From Escherichia phage vB_Eco_F27: a stretch of DNA of 64,000 bases. The notes under the pieces were generated by a model. It worked only from the letters and a program-made list of their open reading frames with translations, made no database searches and was not told the DNA's origin. This document shows positions 5,489 through 43,029 of this stretch, piece after piece (within the stretch, counting starts at the first letter, position 1; every line of letters starts with the position of its first letter). The position numbers were made by a program, and so were the translations under genes. Location of the stretch: sequence record OP870146.1. The stretch is one strand, 5' to 3'.

Positions 5489-5689
5489 TTATTCGTAGAA
5501 GTCGGTAACTGTCCATGCGGAATTGCGATTAGACATTATTTTATTATACTCATCTTTAAAAGCAGATTTGAGCATTTGTTCAGTAACAATATGTTCTTCA
5601 CCTGAAAACGTATTGGTCAAAACATATTTTTTAATTTCAGGGACAACGAGAAGATGTTGTCCAGTTGAATACTCCATGTTGTTCTCCAT
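5489..5689 (-). CDS. hypothetical protein (45.2 position)
   Basis: 66 aa ORF, co-oriented and tightly packed. Confidence 0.5.
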   Translation of the reverse strand: MENNMEYSTGQHLLVVPEIKKYVLTNTFSGEEHIVTEQMLKSAFKDEYNKIMSNRNSAWTVTDFYE

Positions 5690-5731
5690 TTAATTTGATG
5701 TGGTCATTATAACCACATCGTGTTAAAGCGT

Positions 5732-7420
5732 TTATGAAACAGTCATTACAGTAAATCGTCCAACTTTGCTCATTTGCAAATGTTGTCCATAACGTTGAGG
5801 GTCATGGTCCCTATGAGAAATAATGAACACGTTAGTATTTTGTAAACTTCCAAGAATGGTATCTATAGCCTTAACAGCTTCAGAATCAACTGCCCCATCA
5901 AAAACCTCATCAAGAATCAGAGTGTTGATTTTAACACCAGAGACCTTTTCAGCAATATCTCGCCATGTAAACAACAACGCGATATCAATGCGTGCTTTTT
6001 CACCTTGACTAAATGAAGCATAACTAAAATCTTCACGACCACGTGATTTTATAGATTCATTGAATTCTTCATCAATAGAAAACACGTAATCAGCTTCCAT
6101 AATTTTAAGATAATGGTTAATCTGCTTGTTGAACAGAGGCACATATTTTTTAATGATAGCACCTTTAATACCAGAATCTTTTAACATATCTGTGATAATA
6201 CCACGATGGTATTTTTCAAGAACGGTATCCGATTTTGTTTTAATGATTTTATCAAGTTCTTTTTGAAGCAAAGCTATCTCATCGGCATGGTCGATAAATT
6301 CTGCTGAGGCTTGCTCTATTGCAGCTTTAACTTTCTTAGCTTTATCAATAGTGGCAATCATTGCTTGTTTCTTGGTACGAATATCAGATGCAAGGTCCTG
6401 CTTAGTCTTAACATTAGCTCTATATTCATCAACTAGGACACTCAGATTATCTCTGTGACAGGTAAGTTGCTCGAATGAGTGATTACATTCATGAAGCTTA
6501 TCGGTAATCTTAGAGACAATAGGGTCACCCTGGTGCAATTGTGATGCACAAGTAGGACATGTGCCACCGTCATGATACATCTTAATAACTTTGTTATATG
6601 AGTCAATTTTAGATTTAATCAAGAATGCTTCTTGTCCTATCTTATTGAATGCCTCAGTAGGGTCTTCATCAAGAACGATATTAAGTAGTCGCTCATTAGC
6701 TTCTTCGATTTCTGCTTTTAATGAACGAGCTTCTTTGGCTAGGTCGTCATACATATTCTGTAGACGCGCTACATTATCACCAGATAATTTCTTTTGACGT
6801 TCGATATTCTCATTATAAATCTTAATTTGTTGGATAACACCATCTTTCTTGGCATCGAGAACTTGCCCCTGGGAATTAAGTTCGCGAACTTGAGACTTAT
6901 TGATTTTATCCATTTCAGCGAGTGTGCCGACTTCTAAAAGGTCTTCGACAAGTTTTCTACGAGCAGGGGTGCTAAGAGCCATGAAAGGGGTATACCCTGC
7001 CGTCCCAAGCACAACGATCTGTTTAAAAGACGCGTATGACATTCCGATGCTACGTTCAAATTCTTCTTGGAAGTCACGACTGCTGGCAGATTCATCGAGA
7101 CGAACACCGTCAACGGAGATTTCGAAAATATTGGGCTTTTGGCCGCGTCTAATGAAGTATTTTTTATCATCGAATTCCATCCAAAGCTCAACTAAGAGCT
7201 CTTTCTTGTTCGTGCTATTAATGATTTGTCCTTTCTTAACATCACGAAATGGTTTACCGAAAAGTCCGAAAGTAATGGCTTCTAACATCGTAGATTTACC
7301 ACCGCCATTTTTACCAGTGATTAATGTCTTTTGGACTTTATCTAATTGGATATCAATAGGATTCCCACCTACCGACATGATGTTTTGATAACGAACACGA
7401 TTTAATTTAAATGATTTCAT
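5732..7420 (-). CDS. 46: recombination endonuclease subunit gp46 (SbcC/Rad50-like ATPase)
   Basis: 562 aa; N-terminal Walker A GKNGGGKST, long coiled-coil middle, C-terminal Walker B LILDEVFDG. Confidence 0.92.
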   Translation of the reverse strand: MKSFKLNRVRYQNIMSVGGNPIDIQLDKVQKTLITGKNGGGKSTMLEAITFGLFGKPFRDVKKGQIINSTNKKELLVELWMEFDDKKYFIRRGQKPNIFEISVDGVRLDESASSRDFQEEFERSIGMSYASFKQIVVLGTAGYTPFMALSTPARRKLVEDLLEVGTLAEMDKINKSQVRELNSQGQVLDAKKDGVIQQIKIYNENIERQKKLSGDNVARLQNMYDDLAKEARSLKAEIEEANERLLNIVLDEDPTEAFNKIGQEAFLIKSKIDSYNKVIKMYHDGGTCPTCASQLHQGDPIVSKITDKLHECNHSFEQLTCHRDNLSVLVDEYRANVKTKQDLASDIRTKKQAMIATIDKAKKVKAAIEQASAEFIDHADEIALLQKELDKIIKTKSDTVLEKYHRGIITDMLKDSGIKGAIIKKYVPLFNKQINHYLKIMEADYVFSIDEEFNESIKSRGREDFSYASFSQGEKARIDIALLFTWRDIAEKVSGVKINTLILDEVFDGAVDSEAVKAIDTILGSLQNTNVFIISHRDHDPQRYGQHLQMSKVGRFTVMTVS

Positions 7421-9421: not shown

Positions 9422-9704
9422 TAGCCTGACGAGTAGTAACCCACTGGATTTTAATTAACTTGTCATTATATGGTTGTCGTAGAATATCCCGAGATTTCTT
9501 AATAGCATATTCGTAAGCTTCGAAGTTGTTTTGAATTGCTGCTTCTTGAGCATGTGCATAAAGACGGTTTAGTTCAAAACGATTCTTTTTAAGAATCTTT
9601 TCGGATTTTTTACGTGCTTCAGCTTCATTTTTCTTTTGGATTTCTTGTAGCATTTTAGCTACTGCATCTTCTGCTTCTTTATTTTCAATAATCTCGGTAG
9701 TCAT
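9381..9704 (-). CDS. hypothetical protein (Lys/Glu-rich)
   Basis: 107 aa ORF downstream of gene 55. Confidence 0.45.
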   Translation of the reverse strand: MTTEIIENKEAEDAVAKMLQEIQKKNEAEARKKSEKILKKNRFELNRLYAHAQEAAIQNNFEAYEYAIKKSRDILRQPYNDKLIKIQWVTTRQAIEDIINGASSNKV

Positions 9705-9705
9705 A

Positions 9706-9921
9706 TTATCTCATTAAATTAAAATAAAAACGTCCGTCCTCTTCAATACAGAACTCGTACTCAACTGGAGTTCCATTTATCGAAAATGACACGTCATGTG
9801 GGTTCAAAGGGTCGATGTCAAAATTAATTTTAAATTCTCGACCCAACAGTTTTACCAAATAAGGGATTGCTTCGTCAAAAGGTTCTTCTAAGTAGTTAGA
9901 GATGTCAATTGTCATCCTCAT
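9706..9921 (-). CDS. hypothetical protein
   Basis: ORF track 9706..9999 overlaps the gene 55 end; likely starts at an internal Met (MRMTIDIS...). Confidence 0.35.
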
Positions 9922-10480
9922 ATAAAAAATCCAAACTAGGCGAATCGCTAACAACTTCCTTCTTTTCAGCCCCAGGAGCTTTATAAGCGGATTCTTCATA
10001 ATGCGTCATTTTATCGTAGATGTCTTGAATAAACGTTTCATCTACCAACGCTACCATATCATCGTCATGACTGTCGTAGACATTATGAACGAAGTAACTA
10101 TATTTCTTTGCAACTTCCTTACGTTCTTTTTTGATACGTTGGACAAAAGCATTAAAACAAGCTCGAGTTATGTATGCATGTGGGTTATTGTACTTAGTTT
10201 CGTCGAAATTATGAAGTCCCTTAATAGAGGCTTCAATCCCATCTGCAATCATCTCCTGCTTCCAAGACTGGGTATATCCTGAAAAGTTGAAACGTTTGGA
10301 CAGGCCTTCGGCGATAAGCATAATTGCTAAACCGATGGTATCATTCTGACGAATAATTTTGTTTGGGTCTTTATTATTTAAGAGCTCCTTTTTCCATTCG
10401 ATTATAGCGGCGAGAAGCTCTTTATTATTCACATAGTTATTTTTAGGTTTTTGTTCAGTCATAAGTACCTCTTGGCTCAA
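9905..10480 (-). CDS. 55: late transcription sigma factor gp55
   Basis: 191 aa; ...[87 protein letters not shown]... near-identical to T4 gp55 as recalled. Confidence 0.92.
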
Positions 10481-18994: not shown

Positions 18995-19299
18995 TATAAT
19001 GTTCTCTCAAATTTGTGGAAGCATTTACGGCATTTCAATTTCAAGTTATCAGTGGTCCAGTTAACCAGTTGGACTTGGATAGTTCCACATTCTGGGCATG
19101 GATGTTTTGCTGCCGATTTGGCAGCATTTTCACGTCGTTCAACCATTTTCATTATTTCGTTCCATGCCGGAGGAACGAACTCTTCTTCACCGTGGATTTT
19201 ATCTCGCTGAACAAATTCAATCTTTGAACTATCGCCAATAAACTTAACCAAGCGGTGATTAGTGTTCATATCAATATCCTCTAAAAGACGTAGTTTCAT
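18994..19299 (-). CDS. hypothetical protein with CxxC...CxxC zinc-ribbon-like motif
   Basis: 101 aa; CPECG...CRKC. Confidence 0.5.
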   Translation of the reverse strand: MKLRLLEDIDMNTNHRLVKFIGDSSKIEFVQRDKIHGEEEFVPPAWNEIMKMVERRENAAKSAAKHPCPECGTIQVQLVNWTTDNLKLKCRKCFHKFERTL

Positions 19300-20249
19300 T
19301 ATAATACCTCAATGGCATTTCGTAAACCATCCGCTTTTGCATTCAGAGCTTTTAATGATTTAGTTTGTTCTGCAATTTGGGCTTCGACTTCTTTCAGACG
19401 AGATTTGAGATATTCGCGTTCTTCAGCCATGATATCGACCTTTTCTGCTTTAGGTTCTTTAATAAGCTTAGGTTTATACGTATTAGGGTTCTTCAGCTTA
19501 ATTCGGGTACGAGAACTGAATAACATTGAACCGTTATCTTCGGTTTCGTCGAACATTTCAACAACATCCATAGTCTCTAACAATGTAATAAGTTTATAAG
19601 ACAACGAACGAATAGTTTTGTTGTGCTTATTAATTTCTTCGGCTTTCATGGTACCGAGATTACGTGAGTAATAATAAGGAACCTGGATATCAATTGATAA
19701 TGATGCGTTACCATTACCGGTTGGTTTGAATACTGCAGTAACCCAATCTTTAACATGAACTTTATTTGTACGACCATCACCGCCTGTGAATAATTTACGA
19801 GAATGTTTAAAAAGCATATTCACTTGTTTATTGAATTCACAAGCAAATTTATCAGCAAATTTAGTTTCAGGAATGGTAGTTAACCAATCAGCCAAATGAG
19901 TCTTTTTAACATCGTTAATAATAGTGAATTCAACCAAATCGGTTTTAGACGTCACAGATTTAATAAAACTCGGCTTCATAAAGTTTTTAATGTTATCGCG
20001 AGCTACAGTAGAAGATAATAAACGAGAACGTTTGAACCATTGAAGCAACGTCCCTAACGAATGAGAATACGCATTTTGAGTATCTTTACAGATATGATTT
20101 TCTTGGCCTATGTATGTACCAAAATCGCGAAGAATACCACTTACCACATCTCGGTGTGGAACATCAAATCCTAGTGCACCAGAAGCGCGCTGAGCATGAA
20201 CGTTAGCGATAAGACCTGCAAAATAATCAATGTAATGTGAACGTGTCAT
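19299..20249 (-). CDS. hypothetical protein with C-terminal coiled coil
   Basis: 316 aa ORF. Confidence 0.6.
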   Translation of the reverse strand: MTRSHYIDYFAGLIANVHAQRASGALGFDVPHRDVVSGILRDFGTYIGQENHICKDTQNAYSHSLGTLLQWFKRSRLLSSTVARDNIKNFMKPSFIKSVTSKTDLVEFTIINDVKKTHLADWLTTIPETKFADKFACEFNKQVNMLFKHSRKLFTGGDGRTNKVHVKDWVTAVFKPTGNGNASLSIDIQVPYYYSRNLGTMKAEEINKHNKTIRSLSYKLITLLETMDVVEMFDETEDNGSMLFSSRTRIKLKNPNTYKPKLIKEPKAEKVDIMAEEREYLKSRLKEVEAQIAEQTKSLKALNAKADGLRNAIEVL

Positions 20250-20306
20250 AATATTTTCCTCTCGTTAAGATAGAAAGATTATACTCCAACCATCCTTGGT
20301 TGTACA

Positions 20307-21302
20307 TCATTCCTTAAGAAGTTTTACTACTTGAATAAGATTAGCTCGTTCTGTTTTATTTTTACCGTTTAAGCCTGCTAATCGTGAGATTTCATCGTCA
20401 GTCTGTTGAATAGTTACATTAAGTTCGTTAATCAAAGCTTCAAAGTATTTGATTTGCTCAGCATGTTTTGATTCAAATTTCTGAACCGGAATAACGTCTT
20501 GATTCAGTTCATCAATAAGGTCTTTAAGAGCATCTTCTTGGTTGATATCATATTCAACTTCTTTTATTTCTTCAACGAGCTCGTCTTTATATCTAACGTC
20601 TTTTAGTCCTGGAGCTGGTCCTAAAATCTCTTCTTTAAGAGTACAAACATATCCAATACGATATCCAGTGCCGTCTCGCTTGATATCAACTTCGTCGATA
20701 AATCCACAATGTTTAAGACCAGAGCCGATTAGGTTAAAATATCCTTGACGTCGTCCTTCAAACGTTACGCGAACTACTAAGACAGTTTTACCTGCAACCT
20801 TTTGAAGCTCACATTTATAAAAGTCAGTTGAACCTGAATAACGTGGATGAGTTTTAAAGTTCATCTGACGATCTAGGCCCATTTGTAAACGTGCTGATAC
20901 GGCCAGAAAACGTGTTTGGTTCTCGTTAAGATGAGCAACAATCTGTTTCAAAGGCATTTTACCATGTTCACGACCGAACAAATCAGTACGTCCTAAATTA
21001 CGCAGGATATTGTTAGAGTTAATCATCGACAGAACGTTAAGTTTATTCAGCGCGCTGAAGATTCCATCAGCCATTGATTTTCCATAACCTTTACACGCTT
21101 TAATAAGTGCTCGCGGCAGATTAGTATAGATTTCAGACGGCATATGAAAATCAAATTTACTAACCAGTAATTGATGAACTTGGATAGAAATTTGTTCATA
21201 ATTAAGTGCTCTGCGATCATTATGGTCTTTAAACCACACTTTAATCTGTGAAGCACATAAACCATTAATTTCATGTTTTACCGCATCAGATGTAATGCTC
21301 AT
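20307..21302 (-). CDS. hypothetical protein with C-terminal coiled coil
   Basis: 331 aa ORF. Confidence 0.6.
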   Translation of the reverse strand: MSITSDAVKHEINGLCASQIKVWFKDHNDRRALNYEQISIQVHQLLVSKFDFHMPSEIYTNLPRALIKACKGYGKSMADGIFSALNKLNVLSMINSNNILRNLGRTDLFGREHGKMPLKQIVAHLNENQTRFLAVSARLQMGLDRQMNFKTHPRYSGSTDFYKCELQKVAGKTVLVVRVTFEGRRQGYFNLIGSGLKHCGFIDEVDIKRDGTGYRIGYVCTLKEEILGPAPGLKDVRYKDELVEEIKEVEYDINQEDALKDLIDELNQDVIPVQKFESKHAEQIKYFEALINELNVTIQQTDDEISRLAGLNGKNKTERANLIQVVKLLKE

Positions 21303-21364
21303 AACTATTTCCTCAGATTGAATTGGAACTCAAAACCATTATAACCCGTCCTTGGGTAAAGCGT

Positions 21365-21889
21365 TTATGCGTGAACCGTCTTTAAACGTTCTTCAAATTT
21401 CCGAAGAAGTGCTTGGCGTTCTGCTCGTTGTTCCATATAAGTTTTAATACGACCTGAAGTGAGGGCGTATTGTTCGTTTACCGATTCCTTCATAAAATCA
21501 GGAATCTCACGACAAGTTTTGATTTCGTCGAACTTGTCAATAACTGCTTGTTGTTCTGCAATCAGATTATTGTAGTATTCGATATCTGATTTAATGTTTT
21601 GGATATCAGACTCAGTAGGCATGTTACGTGCTTTACGTTTTGCCTGATATTCTGCGTTTGTAGCACGACTCCAGTGAAGAGTACGTTTTTTGTTAGTGTT
21701 TTTGTAGACTTCCACAATTCCAACTGAATCGATGATAACAATCCAATTCCAGCGAGATTTGAAAATCTGACCTCCGTCCACGGTAATCTCGTTACCATAA
21801 GCAACATCATTAAAGAACTTGCTTTGTGCTTCAGATTTAAATTTACCGTCGTTATAATTTACCAGGTTGAAAATATCTTTAGCGTTCAT
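21365..21889 (-). CDS. hypothetical protein
   Basis: 174 aa ORF preceded by GGAGGT and an early-promoter-like element. Confidence 0.55.
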   Translation of the reverse strand: MNAKDIFNLVNYNDGKFKSEAQSKFFNDVAYGNEITVDGGQIFKSRWNWIVIIDSVGIVEVYKNTNKKRTLHWSRATNAEYQAKRKARNMPTESDIQNIKSDIEYYNNLIAEQQAVIDKFDEIKTCREIPDFMKESVNEQYALTSGRIKTYMEQRAERQALLRKFEERLKTVHA

Positions 21890-21947
21890 GTTTTACCTCC
21901 AGTAGTTGATAGGTCTATAATAACATAACCGTAGACCTTGTAAACAA

Positions 21948-22235
21948 CTAAAAGAAACTTTTTTCGGTATTTTTTCCACTGAACCAAACAGACTTCGGTA
22001 TTTTCTGTAATTTTTCAGATTTAAGTTTCTCTTCCCGTTCTTTCTTATATACACCCTTGTCGTACTGGAGCATCTCTATGGCATTCTTTTGCAAACGATC
22101 TAAGGTAATTAAGGCTTTAGTTTTTCCTTTCAAGGAAGAGTCCTGGCGAACCTCCTCGCTATATTGCATTGTAGAACTAACCATATGATGAGCATAGAGT
22201 TCGACTGCGGCTTTAATTTTTTGCATAAAATCCAT
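21948..22235 (-). CDS. hypothetical protein
   Basis: 95 aa ORF with AAGAGGA RBS. Confidence 0.4.
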   Translation of the reverse strand: MDFMQKIKAAVELYAHHMVSSTMQYSEEVRQDSSLKGKTKALITLDRLQKNAIEMLQYDKGVYKKEREEKLKSEKLQKIPKSVWFSGKNTEKSFF

Positions 22236-22373
22236 AACATATCCTCTTTGATTTGTACATCATTATTTTTAAATATTTCTATGCCCTAAGTAGGTTCCTG
22301 GTGTCCTTCTTTGAGGTAAGCCATATGATTATTCATCTTTATGGCTTTTGTTACCTCAGAACTTCCTATAAGC

Positions 22374-23375
22374 TTATTTCAGTAAAGTTACTTCAGAGAT
22401 TTCCTCCCAACCATCTTTATCAGTTGAAATAAAATCTGCTACATAAAGAGCCGTACGTAATGATACATTGCGAAGACGAGATACGTTAGCCTTCATCCAG
22501 GACAATGCTTTATACGTTTCTGCATCCGTCAGACCACGTTTCTGCATCATGTCAGTAGATAATATTACATCTTCAACTCGAACCATAATCTCTTCATTAG
22601 AGTGTACTCCAAGGTCGAGATACACTGAACGAGATACTAAAGCTTGAAGGTGCGGAGCAAGTTTCGAACCGCGTTCTAACTCTTTATCGATATCAACGTT
22701 TGTAATGAAAACGATAGTACCTTCAAACTCAAATTCTTTATCAATACCCTTATCATCGAGATAAGATGACGCAGTGCTCCAACAAACTTTGCGTTTATCT
22801 CCGGTATCTAATGCTGCTTTAAGAAGGTTCAAGATGTCCATATCTGAGAATACATCAACGTCGTCGATTAAGAGAACGCTGTCTGCATCACGGTTGAGCC
22901 AAAGTTGTTCGTAAAGGCCAATACCAGAGATTTTACCATTAATGCTTTTGTATTTGATGAAACCATTATCATTAGCATTATTAAGTGCTTTATCCAGAGA
23001 ATACGTCTTACCAATACCGGCTGCACCTGAAATAATGAGTGAACGAATTTTGCCATCGATAATGCCATTCGTCATCATGTTCATTACTTTAAAGCGTTTG
23101 TTGATACGAGTTTTCATATCTTCAGTGCTTTCAACAACTGCAACTGGTGGTGTCTCAACTCCTTCCATTACGATGTCTGATTTGAAGACCCATACTCCAC
23201 GTTCAGAACCATCAATCATAACGAAAATTTTACCATCACCTAAGTGGGAACATTCAGGATTAAGCTTTGCCGGGAACCATGTCTTTGTGGCAACATAAGA
23301 ACCAGAGATTTCGTTATTACGATAGATACCTTTTTTGATTTGAACGTTGAACATTTTATTCTCCAATTTACTCAT
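22374..23375 (-). CDS. P-loop ATPase (nrdC.10-like position)
   Basis: 333 aa; Walker A GAAGIGKT and Walker B LLIDDVD. Confidence 0.7.
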   Translation of the reverse strand: MSKLENKMFNVQIKKGIYRNNEISGSYVATKTWFPAKLNPECSHLGDGKIFVMIDGSERGVWVFKSDIVMEGVETPPVAVVESTEDMKTRINKRFKVMNMMTNGIIDGKIRSLIISGAAGIGKTYSLDKALNNANDNGFIKYKSINGKISGIGLYEQLWLNRDADSVLLIDDVDVFSDMDILNLLKAALDTGDKRKVCWSTASSYLDDKGIDKEFEFEGTIVFITNVDIDKELERGSKLAPHLQALVSRSVYLDLGVHSNEEIMVRVEDVILSTDMMQKRGLTDAETYKALSWMKANVSRLRNVSLRTALYVADFISTDKDGWEEISEVTLLK

Positions 23376-23384
23376 TTCGTTTCG

Positions 23385-23421
23385 ATAGGTCTATAATAAC
23401 ATGTTTAAAGCAAAAGTAAAC
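23385..23421 (-). promoter_or_regulatory. early/middle promoter-like element (GTTTAC -35, MotA-box-like TTTGCTTTA, TATTAT -10)
   Basis: Minus strand reads GTTTACTTTTGCTTTAAACATGTTATTATAGACCTAT upstream of the 22374..23375 start. Confidence 0.5.
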
Positions 23422-23423
23422 AA

Positions 23424-23642
23424 TTATTTGCGACGAGATTTTTTGGTAAGAGGTTGAAAGAACACTGCTTTACCTGCTGGGGATAAGGTGACTCGTAATG
23501 CATTACCGATTCCTAAGGATGCTTTAACTAAACCTTTAGCTTTCAGTTCACCAAATGCTTGACGTTGGTCTGCATCACGAGTGTTAACCATAAGACCTTT
23601 ATCACCTGCTTCACGAATCATTTCTAACATTTTGGTTTTCAT
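23424..23642 (-). CDS. hypothetical small basic protein
   Basis: Start set to the ATG at 23642 (MKTKMLEMIREAG...) preceded by GAGGAGAA. Confidence 0.5.
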   Translation of the reverse strand: MKTKMLEMIREAGDKGLMVNTRDADQRQAFGELKAKGLVKASLGIGNALRVTLSPAGKAVFFQPLTKKSRRK

Positions 23643-23729
23643 TTTGTTCTCCTCTTGTTTTGATAGGTCTATAATAACATATCCTAAAAGCATGTACACT
23701 ACTTTTTAAAAATATTTTAACCCCCTAAA

Positions 23730-23745
23730 GGGACCCGAAGGTCCC
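23730..23745 (-). terminator. GGGACC-TTCG-GGTCCC stem-loop downstream of 23751..24032
   Basis: Perfect 6-bp stem with UUCG loop, seen directly. Confidence 0.5.
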
Positions 23746-23750
23746 CACAT

Positions 23751-24032
23751 TTACTTATCGCACTTAGCAACATAATTAGGCATATCACAGAATACGGAGC
23801 GAGTAACTACTCGGCCCTTTGACCATGCTTCAGTTGCTTGTCCGGCCGTGCTATTAATATAGCTTGATTTGATATTCTCAATACCCTGAGAATGTGATGC
23901 ATTTACCGAACCATTAGAAGGCCCAGAAGACTGGTTACCACCAGCTCCTGCACTACCGCTAGCTGCACCTGTGGTAGCGCCAACAGAGAATGCCATCATT
24001 ACTGCGAATAAACCAATTACTAATTTTTTCAT
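23751..24032 (-). CDS. putative secreted Gly/Ser-rich protein
   Basis: 93 aa; N-terminal signal-peptide-like MKKLVIGLFAVMMAFSVGA. Confidence 0.5.
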   Translation of the reverse strand: MKKLVIGLFAVMMAFSVGATTGAASGSAGAGGNQSSGPSNGSVNASHSQGIENIKSSYINSTAGQATEAWSKGRVVTRSVFCDMPNYVAKCDK

Positions 24033-24063
24033 ATTTACCTCAAGTTAAGGGTTATTTATCTAC

Positions 24064-25053
24064 TTATTTATAGTAAGAATTATGATTTTCGAGATAGACT
24101 TGTTCAAGGAAGTCATCCCAGAAACTCATATCTACTTTTTGTTGCATACCGTTCTTAGTGGCTTGTTCCGATGCTTGTTCAACTTGGTCAACGATATCTT
24201 CTAGGAATTCTTGTACAGTTTTAAACGTATGTTTACCAAGCTTAACATCGAGAATAAATGGAGCATCCTGAAGTGGGTAAACCAGGTCGCCGGTTTTGTA
24301 AATTTCCAATAGTTGAAGTCCACCACGACATGCATGACTCAATGCTTTCCAGTCAATACCTTCGTTGGCTTCTGCCTTACGAGCACGTTCACCATAGTTC
24401 TCTTCCAGTTTAACCAGGATGGCATTGAACTCTTTATTGGTTAACGTGTCTTGGAATTTACGGTCTAACAGATTATAGAATGTTTGCTTACCTGTTTTCT
24501 CGTTTTCGGTTTCAACCCACGAAGCAAATTCACCTACAGGCAGAACATTCTTCATATGTGATAAACGAATTACTGCACCATTATCAAAGTATTGTCCCCA
24601 TTCATTAGAACGTTTAAGGGCTTGACGAAGAACAGCCAGTCGAGAACCCTTGACACCGTATTTAGAAGCTTGCTTACGGACATACCCTAAATAAGATTTC
24701 ATGTTAGTAGTATAGAAACGAGACCTGTTGTCTTGAATATACTTCCACACGTCAGGCAAATCAGATTTAACTACTAGACTTGGTGGAGTGTGAAGCATAT
24801 CTAATGCGACGGTTTCACCATCCGCAGCTAGTTTAAAGAAATATTTGAGACTATACAACTCATGGTCCACGTCGTCTTTTGTGTTCTTAGAAGATGTGTT
24901 ATTCGTGTTCTTGCTCATGTGTTCTTTAACGTTACCGGTCAAGATATCACGAGCATGAGGGACATAAATTTCTTTAAAATCGACGTCAGATTCAGGAGTA
25001 GACGTTCCATAAAGGTGGCTACCAAAGTAGCCTTTCATAATTGTTTTCATCAT
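24064..25053 (-). CDS. Pol-beta-type nucleotidyltransferase-like protein (nrdC.11-like position)
   Basis: 329 aa; GSHLYGTSTPESDVDF fits the G[GS]x9-13DhD nucleotidyltransferase signature. Confidence 0.55.
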   Translation of the reverse strand: MMKTIMKGYFGSHLYGTSTPESDVDFKEIYVPHARDILTGNVKEHMSKNTNNTSSKNTKDDVDHELYSLKYFFKLAADGETVALDMLHTPPSLVVKSDLPDVWKYIQDNRSRFYTTNMKSYLGYVRKQASKYGVKGSRLAVLRQALKRSNEWGQYFDNGAVIRLSHMKNVLPVGEFASWVETENEKTGKQTFYNLLDRKFQDTLTNKEFNAILVKLEENYGERARKAEANEGIDWKALSHACRGGLQLLEIYKTGDLVYPLQDAPFILDVKLGKHTFKTVQEFLEDIVDQVEQASEQATKNGMQQKVDMSFWDDFLEQVYLENHNSYYK

Positions 25054-25523
25054 TTAGCCTTATATTCAAGAGTAGGACAGACTTTTTCTTTACGAGCTTT
25101 AAGGTATTCGCCTATTAATGATTTCTTACGTTCAATAGGCTCAAGTCCATTTTTAATTCGTTCTTGGTTTTGTGCAATGAGCTCAATTTCTTTATAATAT
25201 TTTCTGTCGTTATATTTGTCTAACAACCAAGACGGACCAATTACCAACCCGGTAGCAATAAAAGCCATGACTGCTACAATTAAAACGCCTACACCAATTG
25301 AGGCTGGAACTAATGTCCATAGACTGCTAAAAACAAAGAATTTAGTTAAAATTTCCTGGCCAATGATTGTGACTGCTGCTAAAATCGCAAATCCAATAAT
25401 TGAAACAGCTAATACCGGGATTAGCGTTTTCCAAAAATAAGCACACAACGTTTTCGGACGATTCCATGTACTATTGAACGCGGCATAAATTTTAAAGTGC
25501 CAAGAGTTTTCATTGATAATCAT
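25050..25523 (-). CDS. hypothetical membrane protein
   Basis: 157 aa, two or three hydrophobic helices. Confidence 0.5.
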   Translation of the reverse strand: MIINENSWHFKIYAAFNSTWNRPKTLCAYFWKTLIPVLAVSIIGFAILAAVTIIGQEILTKFFVFSSLWTLVPASIGVGVLIVAVMAFIATGLVIGPSWLLDKYNDRKYYKEIELIAQNQERIKNGLEPIERKKSLIGEYLKARKEKVCPTLEYKAK

Positions 25524-25532
25524 AATAATTCC

Positions 25533-26075
25533 TTATTTCAAAGTTGGGATAATAGAATCGAGATAAGCTTTAAGAGCAACTGCTTCATCTTTGTCTAATG
25601 TAATGATATGTTGACGAAGGTCATCAATTTGGCGAATAACTACGACATCACCGTCTTCATAAGAAGGATTAACGCCTAGGACTGTTGTATAGTCAGGGCG
25701 GTCCTGATTTGTAATAAAAGCATTACGGCATTTAGCCCATTGAAGTTTGGCCTTTTTGGCTGTTTCAGATTCCATTAATTCTTTCACCTTAGTGACGAAT
25801 GTTTTCCAATTATTGATAGAAAGGCATTCATCTTCTGTTTCGATATTAACCCCACTATAAAGACCGTGATAAAAACGAACTTGAAGGTCTTCATCAATGT
25901 TAATTACAGATGCATGGCCGGGCGGATTGAGTTTCAAAATCTTGTCCAGTTCCATAGGAAGAATAGTAACAGCATCATCTTCTTGTGTCAGAACGTAAGC
26001 ATAACCACGTTTTTCGATACATAAATCACCAAACAACTCAGTCGTTTCAATTACAGTTTTCATATTATTCACCAA
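25533..26075 (-). CDS. hypothetical protein
   Basis: 180 aa ORF. Confidence 0.5.
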   Translation of the reverse strand: MVNNMKTVIETTELFGDLCIEKRGYAYVLTQEDDAVTILPMELDKILKLNPPGHASVINIDEDLQVRFYHGLYSGVNIETEDECLSINNWKTFVTKVKELMESETAKKAKLQWAKCRNAFITNQDRPDYTTVLGVNPSYEDGDVVVIRQIDDLRQHIITLDKDEAVALKAYLDSIIPTLK

Positions 26076-34856: not shown

Positions 34857-35335
34857 TCGGTAATAAAACGTTCAACTTCATTATTCTTGGCCTTTATCTT
34901 GTCTTTACGTTCCTGTAAACTACTTTTAACAAGATTAATAATGATGCCTACAGTACCTCCACCAATAATACCACCAATAATACTTACAATAGTAGATGCT
35001 AATAAGATAGCGATAATATCTAGTACAGCAAAGGCACTTACTTTAGTACTAAAAAACCATACCGACGGTACAAATATAATCCATCCTGTTATCCATTGGC
35101 ACTTATTGAAAAACTTTTCAAGCTCAGCTTGAGTTGTTCGTATTACTTCATCGATAGGTTGATATCCATTAATGTATCTGTTCACAATAATACCTGCTGG
35201 CTGGTCGATTTTAAATTCTTGGCAAATATGTTTCACTAAGTAGGATGGACATCCTGTCCAATCTACCGAATAATACGAAATACCTTCGTTGCCATCGTCT
35301 ATATTAGACCAATATGTTTTGTTAATCATTACCAA
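34838..35335 (-). CDS. hypothetical membrane protein
   Basis: 165 aa with two hydrophobic helices. Confidence 0.5.
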   Translation of the reverse strand: MVMINKTYWSNIDDGNEGISYYSVDWTGCPSYLVKHICQEFKIDQPAGIIVNRYINGYQPIDEVIRTTQAELEKFFNKCQWITGWIIFVPSVWFFSTKVSAFAVLDIIAILLASTIVSIIGGIIGGGTVGIIINLVKSSLQERKDKIKAKNNEVERFITECRNLR

Positions 35336-36015
35336 CCTTCCATAGGGAATTCCAGATAAACTTGGGCATTGACACGAATTTCATTGGTAATCTTTTTAAC
35401 TCGGTCTGTATTACGAGATACACGTCCGAACCAACGCCATCCATTACTAATTGCACGAGAACCAGTGTGCCATGTTTGCCAATCAAACTGAAGAAGAGTA
35501 CGATCTGGAGCTTCCCATTTCTCTAGTTCACCTTTTTCAATTTTTTCGAGGACTTCTTTGTGCCACTGGCGATAGATAAGTTCGCCATCAGGAATCTGAC
35601 TGAACTCTGCAGTTCCTGTTGCAAAATGAGTAGGACACACATCAGCGTTAACAAGACCAAGAATATGTTCAGACAAATAGCGAGGATTGTCATAATCAGG
35701 TTGTCCTGCAGTAATAAAATGTTGTCCTGTTGGAATATCTGGGCGTGGTACGTCATCATGGTGATATCCAGGAATAGCAGGGTACCAACCAGGCATCAAC
35801 ATGTGGACTCGTGAATCAAATACTACATCCGAGTCTTTCCAATCGTCAGGGAGATTTTGAATAAAGCTACGAGTAATTGGGCCGCCATTATCAAAAGCAA
35901 AATTCAAATCGCAGTTAAAGAACATAGGCTCGTTTTTAATCTGGTCGTTTTTAATCGCATGAGCAAAACCACCTACTGCACGAGCTTGACTATTAAACAC
36001 TTTAGAACTATTCAT
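35329..36015 (-). CDS. hypothetical protein
   Basis: 228 aa ORF. Confidence 0.55.
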   Translation of the reverse strand: MNSSKVFNSQARAVGGFAHAIKNDQIKNEPMFFNCDLNFAFDNGGPITRSFIQNLPDDWKDSDVVFDSRVHMLMPGWYPAIPGYHHDDVPRPDIPTGQHFITAGQPDYDNPRYLSEHILGLVNADVCPTHFATGTAEFSQIPDGELIYRQWHKEVLEKIEKGELEKWEAPDRTLLQFDWQTWHTGSRAISNGWRWFGRVSRNTDRVKKITNEIRVNAQVYLEFPMEGW

Positions 36016-36016
36016 A

Positions 36017-36322
36017 TTATTTTCCTCGACATTCTTTAATGAAATTTTCTAGATTGGTAGATTCAATAGCTTTTTTACGAGCTTCAACATGTTCTTCTTC
36101 AGACAATTTACATTTATAATTGACCCAGACATTATGGTCGAAACTAGTCGTGGCATATAATAACAAAGCTCCGACGAATAATAAAAACGGTGATAAGAAT
36201 ATACAACCAGGCACACCATCCATACTGTAAGCCTTTTGTAATACTGCAACAGAAAGAGTTGCGTAAAAAAGTGATGCAAATATTGTTAAAAGACCAATTC
36301 GGTTGGTTTCGCCTAATTTCAT
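36017..36322 (-). CDS. hypothetical membrane protein
   Basis: 101 aa ORF. Confidence 0.5.
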   Translation of the reverse strand: MKLGETNRIGLLTIFASLFYATLSVAVLQKAYSMDGVPGCIFLSPFLLFVGALLLYATTSFDHNVWVNYKCKLSEEEHVEARKKAIESTNLENFIKECRGK

Positions 36323-36392
36323 AATATTCTCCTCATGTTTTAATAGGACTACTATAACATAGTCCTATAATTGTGTAAACAGTTTTGCGAAA

Positions 36393-37349
36393 TTATTTGA
36401 AAGGTTTTACCATATGGAAATTTTGTTTGAAACGTTTGACGTAATCGTCATGTCCTAAGCTTTGGTACATACTTACTACTTTGCTGTAGTTTTCCCAGGC
36501 GTATTCACGGAACCAACCGGAGGTGATGCTTGTGCAGACTTTTTCTAATGCCATCATGAAACTGGCTTCAGGGTTAATTTTAAAGTCATTAGGAATCTGA
36601 GAACGTTCTAATGCTAGTACACATGATTCTTCATATACACCGGCCAATTTGACCATTTCTGGTAACGATTCGAACTTCTCGCGTGAGGTCATGACTTCAG
36701 AACCGTCTTTCATATAAAATGTATAAGCCGGACGGTCTGTTAGTGCAATGGCTTCATGAATAGTATCATGGTCATATGTATAGATGTCATCTTTAAAGAA
36801 CGCACTTTTAGAAGTGTCAAGAACCGGGTGAGCATAGTTCAAGGTTTCTTTCTGGCGTTTCAGCATAATTTCAGTAAGTTCATCGTTCAGTGTAACACCT
36901 TTACCACGAAGATACTGAATATGGTTCATAGTCTTTAAAAAGAATGGATTATTTTTCTTGAAACGATGAGACATCTTAATTGCAAGACATATCTCAGGAG
37001 TTGCCCAGTAAAACCCGTTCAAACGGTCTTTAGTCAAATTTTTCTTGGCGTATTTTAAAAGGTCATAAGAAGACGTGAAATCTTCAGGAGTGAGTTCACC
37101 GACTAATTCACGGACATTAGTGATTGCCGGAACAATATATGCTTCAAAATGAGTTTCGCGTCCATTATGGAAGCATTTGAAAACTTGGACATCAGGGTTA
37201 TCTTGGTGAACATATACACCCATCATTTGATTTTTGAATGCATTCCAAGAACCTTGGTCCGCAATAAAGTCCCAATCGCTATTTTTGATAGCGCTAGAAT
37301 CAATAAGACCATGATAGTGAAGTGCACGAGAACCAATAACTAACATCAT
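36393..37349 (-). CDS. Pol-beta-type nucleotidyltransferase-like protein
   Basis: 318 aa; IGSRALHYHGLIDSSAIKNSDWDF fits the GSx9-13DxD pattern. Confidence 0.5.
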   Translation of the reverse strand: MMLVIGSRALHYHGLIDSSAIKNSDWDFIADQGSWNAFKNQMMGVYVHQDNPDVQVFKCFHNGRETHFEAYIVPAITNVRELVGELTPEDFTSSYDLLKYAKKNLTKDRLNGFYWATPEICLAIKMSHRFKKNNPFFLKTMNHIQYLRGKGVTLNDELTEIMLKRQKETLNYAHPVLDTSKSAFFKDDIYTYDHDTIHEAIALTDRPAYTFYMKDGSEVMTSREKFESLPEMVKLAGVYEESCVLALERSQIPNDFKINPEASFMMALEKVCTSITSGWFREYAWENYSKVVSMYQSLGHDDYVKRFKQNFHMVKPFK

Positions 37350-37377
37350 AATATTTTCCTCGGATTAATTCATTAAC

Positions 37378-37629
37378 TTAAATTTCACGACATGCGATAT
37401 TATATTCGTCCCAGAGGTCATCGTGTGAAGCCTCTACCAATGGAACGATTGTACCGTTTATGTCTTCATTATAAGGGCAAATTGTACAGTGCGCATCTTC
37501 GAATCGGATGCCTTTGTGTTCAGATTTTTTATAACGCATATCGAATATCTTTGCAAACTTTTCACGAGTAATGGTTTTAGCAACCACTTTGGTTCCGATA
37601 CTTTCGTAATAAATCATTGTGGACTCCAT
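37378..37629 (-). CDS. hypothetical Cys-containing protein
   Basis: 83 aa ORF. Confidence 0.45.
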   Translation of the reverse strand: MESTMIYYESIGTKVVAKTITREKFAKIFDMRYKKSEHKGIRFEDAHCTICPYNEDINGTIVPLVEASHDDLWDEYNIACREI

Positions 37630-37679
37630 TTAATTTGATAGGACTACTATAACATAGCCCTATCTTGTTGTAAACTGTT

Positions 37680-37877
37680 TTAGCAAGAATAACTAGATGA
37701 TACCCAGCCTTGAACAGTGATACTATTATGGGATAATGAGATCGCGTCCTGGAGATTCAGACCTGCGTTATCTTCAATCCATAATGTAACTTCTTCGCGT
37801 TCTTCTGTTGCAATTTGGAACAGGTTTTCCAGAGCAGCTACTGCCGTACGTACAGCACAATCTAATTCACGAGACAT
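37680..37877 (-). CDS. small protein, WVSSSxxC-terminus family (paralog 1)
   Basis: 65 aa ending ...QGWVSSSYSC. Confidence 0.45.
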   Translation of the reverse strand: MSRELDCAVRTAVAALENLFQIATEEREEVTLWIEDNAGLNLQDAISLSHNSITVQGWVSSSYSC

Positions 37878-37886
37878 ATTGTTTCC

Positions 37887-38159
37887 TTAGCAAGTGTGAG
37901 AAGATGCGACCCAACCACCAGTTTCGAGGCTCAGGTTGTAGTCGTATTGGTAAACGTCAGCCCATTCAGCATAGCCGTTTTTTGTACAACGTTCAAGATC
38001 GGCTTTAAGATGTCCGGGTGAATGATAGGTTCCACCCATACCATAAGCTGGATACAAGTCGAATGTTGTGTTTTGTTTATCAGCAATTTCTTTGGCAGCC
38101 TCAATAGCTGCATAGATTTTTGCTACAGCTTCAGCCAGTTCGGTTTGTTCTTTAGACAT
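37887..38159 (-). CDS. small protein, WVSSSxxC-terminus family (paralog 2)
   Basis: 90 aa ending ...GGWVASSHTC. Confidence 0.45.
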   Translation of the reverse strand: MSKEQTELAEAVAKIYAAIEAAKEIADKQNTTFDLYPAYGMGGTYHSPGHLKADLERCTKNGYAEWADVYQYDYNLSLETGGWVASSHTC

Positions 38160-38168
38160 AATGATTCC

Positions 38169-38474
38169 TTAGCACAACGCAGAAGACGAAACCCAAGCAC
38201 CTTCAGTAATAACGTAACCATTACCTTCACGCTTAACATCGCCACCATTATTTTCAATTTCATCTTTCATCCACTGGGATACGATTTCACCCTTAGGATA
38301 ATAAGTACGACCACTACCATAATCACCTACAGAAAATGATACGGCATATTGGTCTGCGATCTTTGTTGCTTCTTCTTCGATACGTTCAGCTTGATTCAGA
38401 AGTTTATAAATTGCATCTGAAGCGGATTTGGCATCATTAAACTCTGGTACTTTAATTTCAATAATCTTACTCAT
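38169..38474 (-). CDS. small protein, WVSSSxxC-terminus family (paralog 3)
   Basis: 101 aa ending ...GAWVSSSALC. Confidence 0.45.
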   Translation of the reverse strand: MSKIIEIKVPEFNDAKSASDAIYKLLNQAERIEEEATKIADQYAVSFSVGDYGSGRTYYPKGEIVSQWMKDEIENNGGDVKREGNGYVITEGAWVSSSALC

Positions 38475-38830
38475 TTTCTACATTCCTTAATAAAGTTTTC
38501 GATTGTTTCATTTTCACGTCTAGCTAGGAGTTCATTATAACTAATCGTTTGAGAAGCGTAAACCTTTTTATTTTTCTTGTTGTGGTTTATAAAATCGTAG
38601 TAAAAATAGACTACAGTACAAAATGATGCGATGGATGCAAAGGCTTGGGTATACCGTAAGTCCTGCCATTGGTCTGTGAATCCACCAGTGTTCCCTATAA
38701 ATCCTAACACAACGCCGTCAATAAGAAATCCAACTAATCCAAAGGCAAATCCCATGCCAATACTCATAATAAAAATTAGAATGTTCTCACCAAGAGAAGG
38801 CCATACGGTTAAGAGTTGAGGCTTTTGCAT
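38471..38830 (-). CDS. hypothetical membrane protein
   Basis: 119 aa ORF. Confidence 0.45.
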   Translation of the reverse strand: MQKPQLLTVWPSLGENILIFIMSIGMGFAFGLVGFLIDGVVLGFIGNTGGFTDQWQDLRYTQAFASIASFCTVVYFYYDFINHNKKNKKVYASQTISYNELLARRENETIENFIKECRK

Positions 38831-42777: not shown

Positions 42778-42854
<77 letters not shown>

Positions 42855-42954: not shown

Positions 42955-43029
42955 TGGTGGCCCTGGCTGGTTTCGATCCAGCTACCTATCAGTTATGAGC
43001 TGACAGCTCTCCCATTGAGCTACAGGGCC
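42955..43029 (-). tRNA. tRNA with CAU anticodon (Ile2-type or Met)
   Basis: Hand-folded: acceptor GGCCCTG/CAGGGCC, D-arm GCTC-AATGGGA-GAGC, anticodon stem GTCAG/CTGAT with loop CTCATAA, T-arm GCTGG-ATCGAAA-CCAGC, encoded CCA. Confidence 0.75.

What the first reader, a model, noticed from the sequence alone, without database searches (positions are those of the whole stretch)
24064..25053. Two Pol-beta-type nucleotidyltransferase-like proteins (24064-25053 and 36393-37349)
Both ~320-aa proteins contain a G-S-x(9-13)-D-x-D segment (GSHLYGTSTPESDVDF; GSRALHYHGLIDSSAIKNSDWDF) characteristic of the Pol-beta nucleotidyltransferase fold. Their substrates are unknown; in a phage they could modify nucleic acids, nucleotide signals or proteins.
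Basis: inference. Interest (0 to 1): 0.5.

Follow-up and report, generated by a model that had tools for sequence, protein, structure and literature searches.

The report
Two phage nucleotidyltransferases; one with partners
Both genes really do encode nucleotide-transferring enzymes: one is the already known T4 NrdC.11/RlaP RNA-end repair enzyme, and the other belongs to an unstudied phage-only family that almost always sits next to small acidic proteins ending in the same Trp-Ser-Ser-Ser-x-x-Cys tail, which suggests a new enzyme-and-partner system.

Summary
The window is an RB69-like T4-type phage (Mosigvirus).

**ORF 24064-25053(-)** is the orthologue of T4 NrdC.11.
- It matches Pfam RlaP/PF10127 (E=8e-13) and phrog_388 'nucleotidyltransferase'.
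- G11-S12, D23-x-D25 and D61/D63 are invariant in homologues.
- Bacterial RlaP adds 1-2 NMPs to RNA 3'-OH ends. This protein is already known.

**ORF 36393-37349(-)** (RB69ORF134c; Pfam DUF7277+DUF7275) is uncharacterised.
- G6-S7, D25-x-D27 and E69 are invariant.

**New observation.**
- The second enzyme is coupled to arrays of 1-6 small acidic proteins, on the same strand and upstream, that end in G-x-W-h-S-S-S-x-x-Cys-COOH.
- They occur in 75/80 viral loci (15/18 lineages) and 5/6 MAG loci, with 0 hits in 172 kb of controls.
- The reverse test was positive in 6/6 cases.
- Three such genes lie at 37680-38474.

**Best guess (about 0.3):** the enzyme nucleotidylylates these tails. The main rival is a MenT-like RNA 3'-end transferase that these proteins regulate.

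The parts
24064..25053 (-). Protein 1, 329 aa: orthologue of T4 NrdC.11, RlaP-family (PF10127) Pol-beta nucleotidyltransferase.
   Evidence: ORF. Pfam RlaP E=8e-13, 49.1 bits against a cut-off of 23, residues 7-137. phrog_388 E=4e-126. tblastn finds it in 1530 phage records, including T2 and T4-type phages. Gene order is the same as T4 nrdC.11/nrdC.10.
24979..25023 (-). Protein 1 catalytic motif, G11-S12 ... D23-x-D25.
   Evidence: Invariant in alignment A3 (12 homologues, 34-81% identity). D61, D63 and D85 are also invariant, and E65 is nearly so.
36393..37349 (-). Protein 2, 318 aa (RB69ORF134c homologue): an uncharacterised, essentially phage-only two-domain enzyme, DUF7277 (NTase) + DUF7275.
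37035..37349 (-). Protein 2 N-terminal minimal NTase domain (about residues 1-105). It contains G6-S7 (37329-37334), D25-x-D27 (37269-37277) and E69 (37143-37145).
   Evidence: Strand 2-5 / helix 6-12 / strand 26-31 / ... / strand 64-73 in the model. G6, S7, D25, D27 and E69 are invariant in A1 and retained in 75 long-form homologues.
36435..36992 (-). Protein 2 C-terminal all-helical domain DUF7275 (residues 120-305). It is densely conserved: K125, H128, K139, H194-D195-x-x-H198, E240, E241, E248-R249, S274, G278.
38169..38474 (-). Tail protein 1 (101 aa, pI 4.6), ends ...GAWVSSSALC-COOH. Member of the partner family of protein 2.
37887..38159 (-). Tail protein 2 (90 aa, pI 4.8), ends ...GGWVASSHTC-COOH.
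   Evidence: phrog_899. tblastn finds it in 280 phage records of the same genera that carry protein 2.
37680..37877 (-). Tail protein 3 (65 aa, pI 4.2), ends ...QGWVSSSYSC-COOH.
   Evidence: phrog_4882, unknown function.
37378..37629 (-). 83-aa ORF between the tail genes and protein 2. Seen only in T4-type loci, so its membership of the module is uncertain.
   Evidence: phrog_3723, unknown function. The corresponding cluster is present in 12 loci, all T4-like.
38534..38562 (-). T4-early-type promoter-like site (GTTTAC-N17-TATAAT) upstream of the tail-gene array.
   Evidence: sequence read. A consensus match only.
37646..37674 (-). T4-early-type promoter-like site (GTTTACA-N17-TATAGT, with TG) upstream of the 83-aa ORF and protein 2.
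   Evidence: A consensus match only.

Best explanation
Both ORFs encode catalytically competent Pol-beta-superfamily nucleotidyltransferases, of two unrelated lineages.

(1) ORF 24064-25053(-) is the NrdC.11/RlaP enzyme of T4-type phages. By homology to the characterised bacterial RlaP enzymes, it most likely adds one or two untemplated NMPs to RNA 3'-OH ends. That would restore nucleotides that anticodon nucleases of the RloC type excise from tRNA, so that the phage RNA ligase/Pnkp system can reseal a functional tRNA. Family membership is shown. The activity is inferred (about 0.6).

(2) ORF 36393-37349(-) is the enzyme of a conserved, essentially phage-only early-gene module. Its N-terminal 100 residues form a minimal NTase with an intact G-S / D-x-D / E metal-binding set and a MenT1/ANT(2'')-like fold. 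A novel helical domain (DUF7275) supplies a second dense cluster of invariant K/H/D/E/R residues, presumably the acceptor and NTP-binding site.

The only other conserved component is an upstream, co-oriented array of 1-6 paralogous small acidic proteins (three here, 37680-38474). Their folded alpha/beta domain ends in an invariant W-h-S-S-S-x-x-Cys-COOH tail.

My committed mechanism is an inference, at about 0.3-0.35. The enzyme uses an NTP and two metal ions to transfer an NMP onto a serine hydroxyl of this tail. This is protein nucleotidylylation, analogous to MntA acting on HepT, or to GlnE/GlnD acting on their partner proteins. The modification would switch the activity of the small proteins early in infection. 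That the enzyme and the tail proteins function together is well supported (about 0.85). Which one acts on which is not shown.
For: Origin of the window:
- It is RB69-like (97-99% nucleotide identity).

Protein 1:
- Pfam RlaP above cut-off and phrog_388.
- Orthology and synteny with T4 nrdC.11, annotated 'nucleotidyltransferase'.
- Invariant GS/DxD/D.
- T4 NrdC.11 is placed in PF10127 by PMC12776372. That paper shows RNA 3'-OH NMP addition, a Mn2+ preference and an NTase-plus-helical-domain crystal structure for bacterial members.
- RlaP is described as the commonest RNA-repair NTase of large phages in PMC7824862.

Protein 2:
- Invariant G6 S7 D25 D27 E69.

The module:
- ORFs ending in the tail motif occur in 75/80 viral loci that carry the enzyme. 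There are 224 such ORFs, all on the enzyme's strand.
- Controls: 0 of 1089 ORFs in 172 kb of control loci, and only the 3 adjacent ORFs in the 64-kb window.
- The tail family is the only neighbour shared by 15 of 18 enzyme lineages; the next best family reaches 4 or fewer.
- 5/6 MAG loci also have it.
- Reverse test: 6/6 divergent tail proteins looked up have a DUF7277/DUF7275 gene 0.02-2.6 kb downstream on the same strand.
- The profile search found 853 cluster representatives, all small. Of the 141 newly retrieved among the best 150, 133 end in Cys and the other 8 carry one or two extra residues.
- T4 lacks both the enzyme and the tails: e.2 and e.3 are adjacent there.

A parallel case:
- The short-form enzyme clade (actinophages, Vibrio K412) instead has 1-3 paralogous small proteins downstream. 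These carry an invariant Ser flanked by aromatic residues.
Against: - No biochemical data exist for either phage protein.
- Protein 1 was not modelled, and no RNA ligase gene lies next to it in the window.
- For protein 2, the closest structural relatives (MenT1/3/4) act on tRNA 3' ends and the next closest on small molecules, not on proteins. The protein-modifying Pol-beta NTases I know of target Tyr rather than Ser (my own knowledge, not tested here).
- AF2 places the tail inside a folded domain: W94 lies in the last beta-strand, and pLDDT is about 84 falling to 61 at the end. It is not a floppy substrate peptide.
- One lineage (L068/L069/L071/L096) and L049 carry the enzyme without recognisable tail genes. 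The tail proteins therefore cannot be its only substrate, unless divergent partners were missed.
- The enzyme is not basic (pI about 5.9). That gives no support for RNA binding, but no support for protein modification either.
Confidence: 0.55

Rival explanations
1. Protein 2 is a MenT/AbiEii-like RNA (tRNA) 3'-end nucleotidyltransferase. It would either block host tRNA charging (host shut-off) or rebuild damaged 3' ends. The acidic tail proteins would be its antitoxin-like inhibitors or specificity factors, inserting their Ser/Cys tail into the active site as a mimic of the acceptor 3'-OH end.
For: The best structural matches are MenT1, MenT3 and MenT4. MenT toxins extend tRNA acceptor ends and are paired with small antitoxin genes encoded upstream (PMC7450476). 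The tail genes are upstream, small and very acidic (pI about 4.4), as expected of a nucleic-acid mimic. Some enzyme lineages lack tail genes. Sporadic neighbours include tRNA arrays (5/58 loci) and Rnl1/PNKP or RNA ligase genes.
Confidence: 0.3
2. Protein 2 nucleotidylylates a small molecule, as ANT(2'')-Ia and LnuA do with antibiotics, or makes or destroys a nucleotide signal. The tail proteins would be functionally separate genes that merely travel with it.
Against: Adjacency is strict and strand-specific across 15/18 lineages, and 6/6 in the reverse direction. That is hard to reconcile with unrelated function. No match to PADLOC models or to cGAS/CD-NTase-type families.
Confidence: 0.1
3. 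RiPP-like maturation. The enzyme activates a tail serine by NMPylation, elimination gives dehydroalanine, and the terminal cysteine adds to it to form a thioether (lanthionine/AviCys-like) ring at the C-terminus.
For: The commonest tail, S-S-S-x-x-Cys-COOH, has Ser(i)...Cys(i+3) with Cys as the last residue. From my own knowledge, that is the spacing of AviCys rings. A G-G pair often precedes the Trp. Several precursor-like paralogues sit next to one enzyme.
Against: The variant tail W-x-x-S-S-C (41 of 185) leaves no room for such a ring. What is conserved is the would-be core rather than a leader, and the proteins are folded domains. No dehydratase, cyclase, decarboxylase, protease or exporter is conserved nearby. 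No enzyme of this fold is known to do this.
Confidence: 0.06
4. The motifs are chance matches and one or both proteins are not nucleotidyltransferases.
For: The bare GS-x(9,17)-DxD pattern also occurs in four other ORFs of the window, against an expectation of 2.5.
Against: Profile matches, invariant catalytic residues and the predicted fold.
Confidence: 0.02

Closest known systems
RlaP (RNA ligase-associated Pol-beta NTase, Pfam PF10127/COG3541), including T4 NrdC.11
   Same: Protein 1 matches the family model above its cut-off. It carries the conserved G-S, D-x-D and further Asp residues. It is the positional orthologue of T4 NrdC.11.
   Different: Only the N-terminal half (residues 7-137) aligns to the Pfam model. 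The phage clade forms its own cluster in the published network (PMC12776372). The gene is not next to an RNA ligase gene. The activity of the phage enzyme has not been tested.
MenT/AbiEii (DUF1814) nucleotidyltransferase toxins
   Different: No sequence-level match to the family. The C-terminal domain (DUF7275) is about 200 residues with its own conserved residues. The family is phage-borne rather than a chromosomal toxin-antitoxin pair. The partners are arrays of folded acidic proteins unrelated to MenA/AbiEi antitoxins.
Small-molecule NTases ANT(2'')-Ia, LnuA, TM1012
   Different: These are roughly half the size and have no DUF7275-like domain. They are resistance enzymes with no partner proteins.
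MntA-HepT type VII toxin-antitoxin systems and GlnE/GlnD (protein-nucleotidylylating Pol-beta NTases)
   Same: This is a functional analogy only: a minimal NTase encoded next to the small protein it modifies.
   Different: No sequence or specific fold match was found. The only MntA hit is an insignificant one for protein 1 (E=0.077). No HEPN R-x4-6-H motif is present. The known targets are Tyr rather than Ser (my own knowledge).

Membership tests
Pol-beta nucleotidyltransferase superfamily (protein 1) | h-G-[GS] then [DE]-h-[DE]-h, plus a third carboxylate, all conserved in homologues | tested here: met
   G11, S12, D23, D25, D61, D63 and D85 are invariant in 12 homologues at 34-81% identity.
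RlaP / PF10127 (protein 1) | Match to the curated family model above its gathering score | tested here: met
   49.1 bits against a cut-off of 23, E=8e-13, but over residues 7-137 only. T4 NrdC.11 is listed in the family in PMC12776372.
RlaP / PF10127 (protein 1) | N-terminal NTase domain plus C-terminal helical domain forming a cleft (PfRlaP crystal structure) | not tested
No PDB sequence match.
RlaP / PF10127 (protein 1) | Gene neighbourhood with an RNA ligase or RNA-repair operon | tested here: not met
   Of the neighbouring ORFs scanned, the nearest on either side and several further downstream (19299-26075), the only Pfam matches are a weak AAA ATPase (below cut-off), a weak YbgS-like match (below cut-off) and a y05I-like factor; the rest had no match. 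No ligase was found. In T4 the ligase and Pnkp genes lie elsewhere in the genome (my own knowledge).
RlaP / PF10127 (protein 1) | Adds 1-2 NMPs to RNA 3'-OH ends, Mn2+-stimulated | not testable with these tools
   Shown only for the Pseudomonas enzymes.
Pol-beta nucleotidyltransferase superfamily (protein 2) | Conserved G-S, D-x-D and third carboxylate | tested here: met
   G6, S7, D25, D27 and E69 are invariant in A1, at 90% or more in A2, and kept in 75 long-form homologues.
Pol-beta nucleotidyltransferase superfamily (protein 2) | The alpha/beta NTase fold | tested here: met
DUF1814 / AbiEii / MenT (protein 2) | Sequence match to the family model (Pfam AbiEii) | tested here: not met
   No such hit for any of 35 members at E<=10.
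DUF1814 / AbiEii / MenT (protein 2) | Family-specific C-terminal motifs III and IV (the equivalents of MenT3 K189 and D211) | tested here: inconclusive
   Invariant K125/K139 and D195 exist in helices after the core. Equivalence could not be established without a residue-level superposition.
DUF1814 / AbiEii / MenT (protein 2) | Toxin paired with a cognate antitoxin; toxic to the cell | not testable with these tools
   Upstream small partner genes exist, but they are unrelated to the known antitoxins.
Anti-phage defence or known counter-defence families (both proteins) | Match to PADLOC models | tested here: not met
   No hit for either protein at E<=10.

The most novel reading that the evidence does not exclude
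The DUF7277/DUF7275 enzyme and the W-h-S-S-S-x-x-Cys proteins form a previously unrecognised covalent protein-modification system of large virulent phages. In its most novel form, the NTase activates a tail serine as Ser-O-NMP. This then either primes a short nucleotide chain on the protein, or is eliminated so that the terminal cysteine closes a thioether ring. Either would be new post-translational chemistry for this enzyme fold and for phages.
Probability: 0.07. Interest if true: 0.9.

Novelty: new variant of a known kind. Interest (0 to 1): 0.6.

Why it matters
Protein 1 adds nothing new: it is an annotated member of a family whose activity has just been described.

Protein 2 is different.
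- It shows that a 'domain of unknown function' pair, present in at least 733 sequenced phages (T4-type, rV5-type, jumbo phages, Pseudomonas, Acinetobacter and Xanthomonas phages, actinophages), is an intact nucleotidyltransferase.
- It is tied to a second unannotated family, with about 850 clusters at 50% identity. That family has one of the most sharply conserved C-terminal motifs one can find in phage small proteins.
- The pairing gives a direct, cheap experiment: co-express the two proteins, then run mass spectrometry and 32P-NTP labelling.
- That experiment could reveal either a new kind of protein nucleotidylylation or a phage-borne MenT-like tRNA enzyme with its regulators. Both bear on how large virulent phages take over, or defend, the host translation apparatus.

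Tried and rejected
- **Homologue search for protein 1** returned only sequences at 98% identity or more. It was therefore useless for modelling. I used tblastn-derived loci for the conservation analysis instead and did not model protein 1.
- **PDB sequence searches** for both families found nothing significant. A weak RNase L KEN-domain hit (E=0.22) suggested HEPN, but no R-x4-6-H motif is present.
- **The afdb50 fold library** was unavailable.
- **Pfam at E<=10 on 35 members of family 2** gave only noise-level hits: Polbeta 0.098, DUF4269 0.25.
- **PADLOC** gave no hits.
- **Literature searches** for DUF7275, DUF7277, the phrog ids and RB69ORF134c found nothing.
- **Are the two NTases paralogues?** No: hhalign probability 0.4%.
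- **Is the actinophage partner family related to the tail family?** No: hhalign probability 0.2%.
- **tRNA-gene linkage of protein 2:** only 5/58 loci.
- **RNA ligase/PNKP linkage:** confined to one jumbo-phage lineage plus one Streptomyces phage.
- **Co-variation between enzyme cysteines and the tail cysteine:** C272 is kept in all long forms, including tail-less loci, and C243 varies, so the result is uninformative.
I replaced them with six reverse look-ups.

Full report
**Origin of the window.** Both regions are 97-99% identical in DNA to RB69-type phages (Mosigvirus, Tevenvirinae), such as vB_EcoM_G2469, mogra, phi25-307 and RB69 itself.

**The observation.** Both ORFs are present on the minus strand at the stated coordinates, and both quoted peptide segments are there.
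- The spacing between G-S and D-x-D is 10 residues in the first protein.
- The bare pattern is a weak signal. Six ORFs of the window contain GS-x(9,17)-D-x-D, against 2.5 +/- 1.5 in shuffles.
- The finding therefore stands or falls on conservation, profiles and fold.

**Protein 1 (24064-25053, 329 aa).**
- It matches Pfam PF10127 'RlaP' at 49.1 bits (cut-off 23, E=8e-13, residues 7-137) and phrog_388 'nucleotidyltransferase' at E=4e-126.
- tblastn finds it in 1530 phage records, including T2 and T4-type phages.
- In T4 the equivalent gene is nrdC.11, annotated 'nucleotidyltransferase'. It lies just upstream of the AAA-type nrdC.10, and the window has the same order (22374-23375 is the AAA protein).
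- Its COG3541 NTase match was already noted in 2006 (PMC1524935).
- Across 12 homologues down to 34% identity, G11, S12, D23, D25, D61, D63 and D85 are invariant. So is a C-terminal block, YG-RA--AEANEGIDWKA-SHA-R.

**What is known about the RlaP family.**
- A December 2025 preprint (PMC12776372) places T4 NrdC.11 in the RlaP family.
- It shows that two Pseudomonas RlaP enzymes add one or two NMPs to RNA, but not DNA or protein, 3'-OH ends. They prefer nicked-tRNA mimics and Mn2+.
- The crystal structure has an NTase domain plus a helical domain.
- RlaP is also described as the commonest RNA-repair NTase of jumbo phages (PMC7824862).
- T4 nrdC.11 is dispensable in the laboratory (PMC9825161).

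**Verdict on protein 1.** It is an already known family member, and its activity is inferred by homology. I did not model it: the homologue search gave only near-identical sequences, and both modelling jobs went to the unknown proteins.

**Protein 2 (36393-37349, 318 aa; RB69ORF134c).**
- It matches only two Pfam 'domains of unknown function', DUF7277 (residues 2-101) and DUF7275 (120-305), plus phrog_2141, unknown function.
- No paper in the library mentions them.
- In 35 homologues at 47-75% identity, G6, S7, D25, D27 and E69 are invariant. These are exactly the Pol-beta NTase metal and NTP-binding set. Some 50 positions of the C-terminal domain are also invariant, including K125, H128, K139, H194-D195-x-x-H198, E240, E241 and E248-R249.
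- AlphaFold2 with 120 sequences gives pLDDT 92.9 and pTM 0.87. The GS lies between strand 2-5 and helix 6-12, DxD lies at the start of strand 26-31, and E69 lies in strand 64-73.
- Foldseek agrees: 5uvd E=5e-4, MenT1 E=2e-3, probability 1.0.

**Verdict on protein 2.** The two NTases are not close relatives of each other (hhalign probability 0.4%). Protein 2 is not a sequence-level member of DUF1814/AbiEii.

**Distribution of protein 2.**
- tblastn finds it in 733 phage records across T4-type, rV5-type and jumbo phages; Pseudomonas, Acinetobacter and Xanthomonas phages; and actinophages.
- 175 IMG/VR stretches encode a relative.
- A scan of one genome for each of 185,579 species found only six loci, all metagenome bins. 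At this sensitivity the family is essentially phage-only.
- Where tblastn matched only the C-terminal domain, the full ORFs still begin with h-G-S ... D-h-D.
- T4 lacks it. There e.2 and e.3 are adjacent, whereas in RB69-type phages a cassette of about 3.1 kb (35329-38474 in the window) sits between them.

**The main new result comes from the neighbourhood.**
- I clustered all ORFs of 80 viral loci. One family of small proteins accompanies the enzyme in 71 loci.
- All its members end in the same C-terminal motif. A simple pattern (W, 1-3 residues, S-S, up to 3 residues, C as the last residue) hits 224 ORFs in 75 of the 80 loci. Every hit is on the enzyme's strand, and those listed lie almost without exception upstream of it.
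- The same pattern hits 0 of 1089 ORFs in 172 kb of control loci. In the whole 64-kb window it hits only three ORFs: 38169-38474, 37887-38159 and 37680-37877, which lie just upstream of protein 2, separated from it by an 83-aa ORF.
- The consensus of 185 non-redundant tails is G-G-W-[VILM]-S-S-S-x-x-C-COOH (139 cases), with a variant W-x-[PSA]-S-S-C-COOH (41 cases).
- This is the only neighbour shared by 15 of the 18 enzyme lineages defined at 60% identity. No other family reaches more than four.
- Five of the six MAG loci have it too.

**The reverse test.**
- I looked up six divergent tail proteins found by profile search. All six have a DUF7277/DUF7275 gene 0.02-2.6 kb downstream on the same strand.
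- A profile search of 1.84 billion cluster representatives finds 853 members (193 at E<=1e-10). All of the best 150 are 68-175 aa.
- Of the 141 newly retrieved among those 150, 133 end in Cys. The other 8 carry one or two extra residues.

**What the tail proteins are.**
- They form a real family rather than a tag on unrelated proteins. 157 of 185 cluster together even without their last ten residues.
- They share an N-terminal amphipathic helix (..IAD..G..F), a Y-G-x-G-x-T-Y-Y-P hairpin, an acidic variable stretch and the tail.
- They are very acidic: median pI 4.4, net charge -9.
- They have no Pfam family and only unknown-function PHROGs.

**Expression.**
- In the window the genes are tightly packed. 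A T4-early-type promoter-like sequence lies upstream of the array, and another lies upstream of the 83-aa ORF and protein 2.
- These are consensus matches only, but they suggest early expression.

**A parallel in the short-form clade.**
- Short-form enzyme homologues (251-266 aa) occur in Gordonia, Streptomyces and Mycobacterium phages and in Vibrio phage K412. They keep G-S and D-x-D and the core residues of the helical domain.
- They lack the Cys-tail genes. Instead, all four have 1-3 paralogous small ORFs immediately downstream, from an unrelated family. That family has an invariant Ser flanked by aromatic residues (G-[YW]-Y-x-S-[YWF]).
- With only four loci this is a lead, not a result. 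It does repeat the theme of this enzyme travelling with expanded families of small proteins that carry a conserved Ser.

**Mechanism of protein 2.**
- *Shown:* an intact NTase active site, a MenT/ANT-like fold, a novel conserved helical domain, and obligatory-looking genomic coupling to the tail family.
- *Inferred:* what the enzyme transfers and onto what.
- *My preferred reading (about 0.3-0.35):* NMP transfer to a tail serine, by analogy with minimal NTases that modify an adjacently encoded protein (MntA-HepT). This explains the invariance of S-S and of the tail's position, the multiple paralogues per enzyme, and the Ser-centred motif of the second partner family.
- *Main rival (about 0.3):* a MenT-like RNA/tRNA 3'-end transferase that the acidic proteins inhibit or direct. 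This fits the structural neighbours and the existence of tail-less lineages.
- *Less likely:* a small-molecule NTase (about 0.1) or RiPP-like thioether formation (about 0.06).
- *Linkage to tRNA genes or RNA-repair genes* is sporadic and lineage-bound.

**Verdict.** Protein 1 is already known (NrdC.11/RlaP). Protein 2 is a new, uncharacterised variant of the NTase superfamily with a previously unreported partner family. That pairing is the interesting part and is directly testable.

Noticed in passing
window 37680-38474 (-): 38169-38474, 37887-38159, 37680-37877: Three tandem small acidic proteins all end in W-V-[SA]-S-S-x-x-Cys-COOH. They belong to a family of about 850 clusters that is almost always encoded just upstream of protein-2 homologues. 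The family has no Pfam entry, no structural neighbour and no literature.
   Followed up: yes
L115:3600-4360, L116:3630-4322, L117:3109-4204, L118:3491-3856: Short-form homologues of protein 2 in Gordonia, Streptomyces and Mycobacterium phages and in Vibrio phage K412 lack Cys-tail genes. Instead they are followed by 1-3 paralogous small ORFs of a different family (GGEGEG ... G-[YW]-Y-x-S-[YWF] ... EV) with an invariant Ser.
   Followed up: partly
window 22374-23375 (-): A 333-aa P-loop/AAA-like protein with a weak C-terminal HTH_37 match. It is the NrdC.10 equivalent, downstream of protein 1 with two small ORFs between them, as in T4. Whether it works with NrdC.11 is unknown.
   Followed up: partly
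window 25533-26075 (-): A 180-aa protein two genes upstream of protein 1 (a 157-aa ORF lies between) matches the Pfam T4_y05I_N and T4_y05I_C 'putative transcription factor' domains (E=4e-41 and E=1e-19).
   Followed up: no
GenBank records under window 24064-25053: Many phage records label the NrdC.11 homologue 'thioredoxin'. This is an annotation error, apparently propagated from the gene name nrdC.
   Followed up: no
window 42778-42854 and 42955-43029 (-): tRNA-Arg(TCT) and tRNA-Met(CAT) genes lie about 5.4 kb upstream of protein 2. Across 58 sampled loci, tRNA genes lie within about 4 kb of the enzyme in only 5.
   Followed up: yes
window 35329-36322 (-): A 228-aa protein (phrog_1843) and a 101-aa predicted membrane protein (phrog_9798) complete the cassette inserted between the e.2-like and e.3-like genes. 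They accompany protein 2 only in T4-type phages.
   Followed up: partly
L002 (RB69, NC_004928) 5669-5975: RB69's original annotation splits the 101-aa tail protein into ORF138c (33 aa) and ORF139c (71 aa). In the window and in phi25-307 it is one ORF.
   Followed up: no
L126:829-3640 and 9428-10171; also L064, L067, L086: In one jumbo-phage lineage the module lies 3-5 kb downstream of T4-type Rnl1 RNA ligase and Pnkp genes. A metallophosphatase gene follows it in 15 loci. This looks like lineage-specific synteny.
   Followed up: partly
L068, L069, L071, L096 and L049: These loci carry a full-length enzyme with all catalytic residues, but no ORF with the Cys-tail motif within 4 kb upstream. L049 has an ORF ending ...CYSSSTF.
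   Followed up: partly
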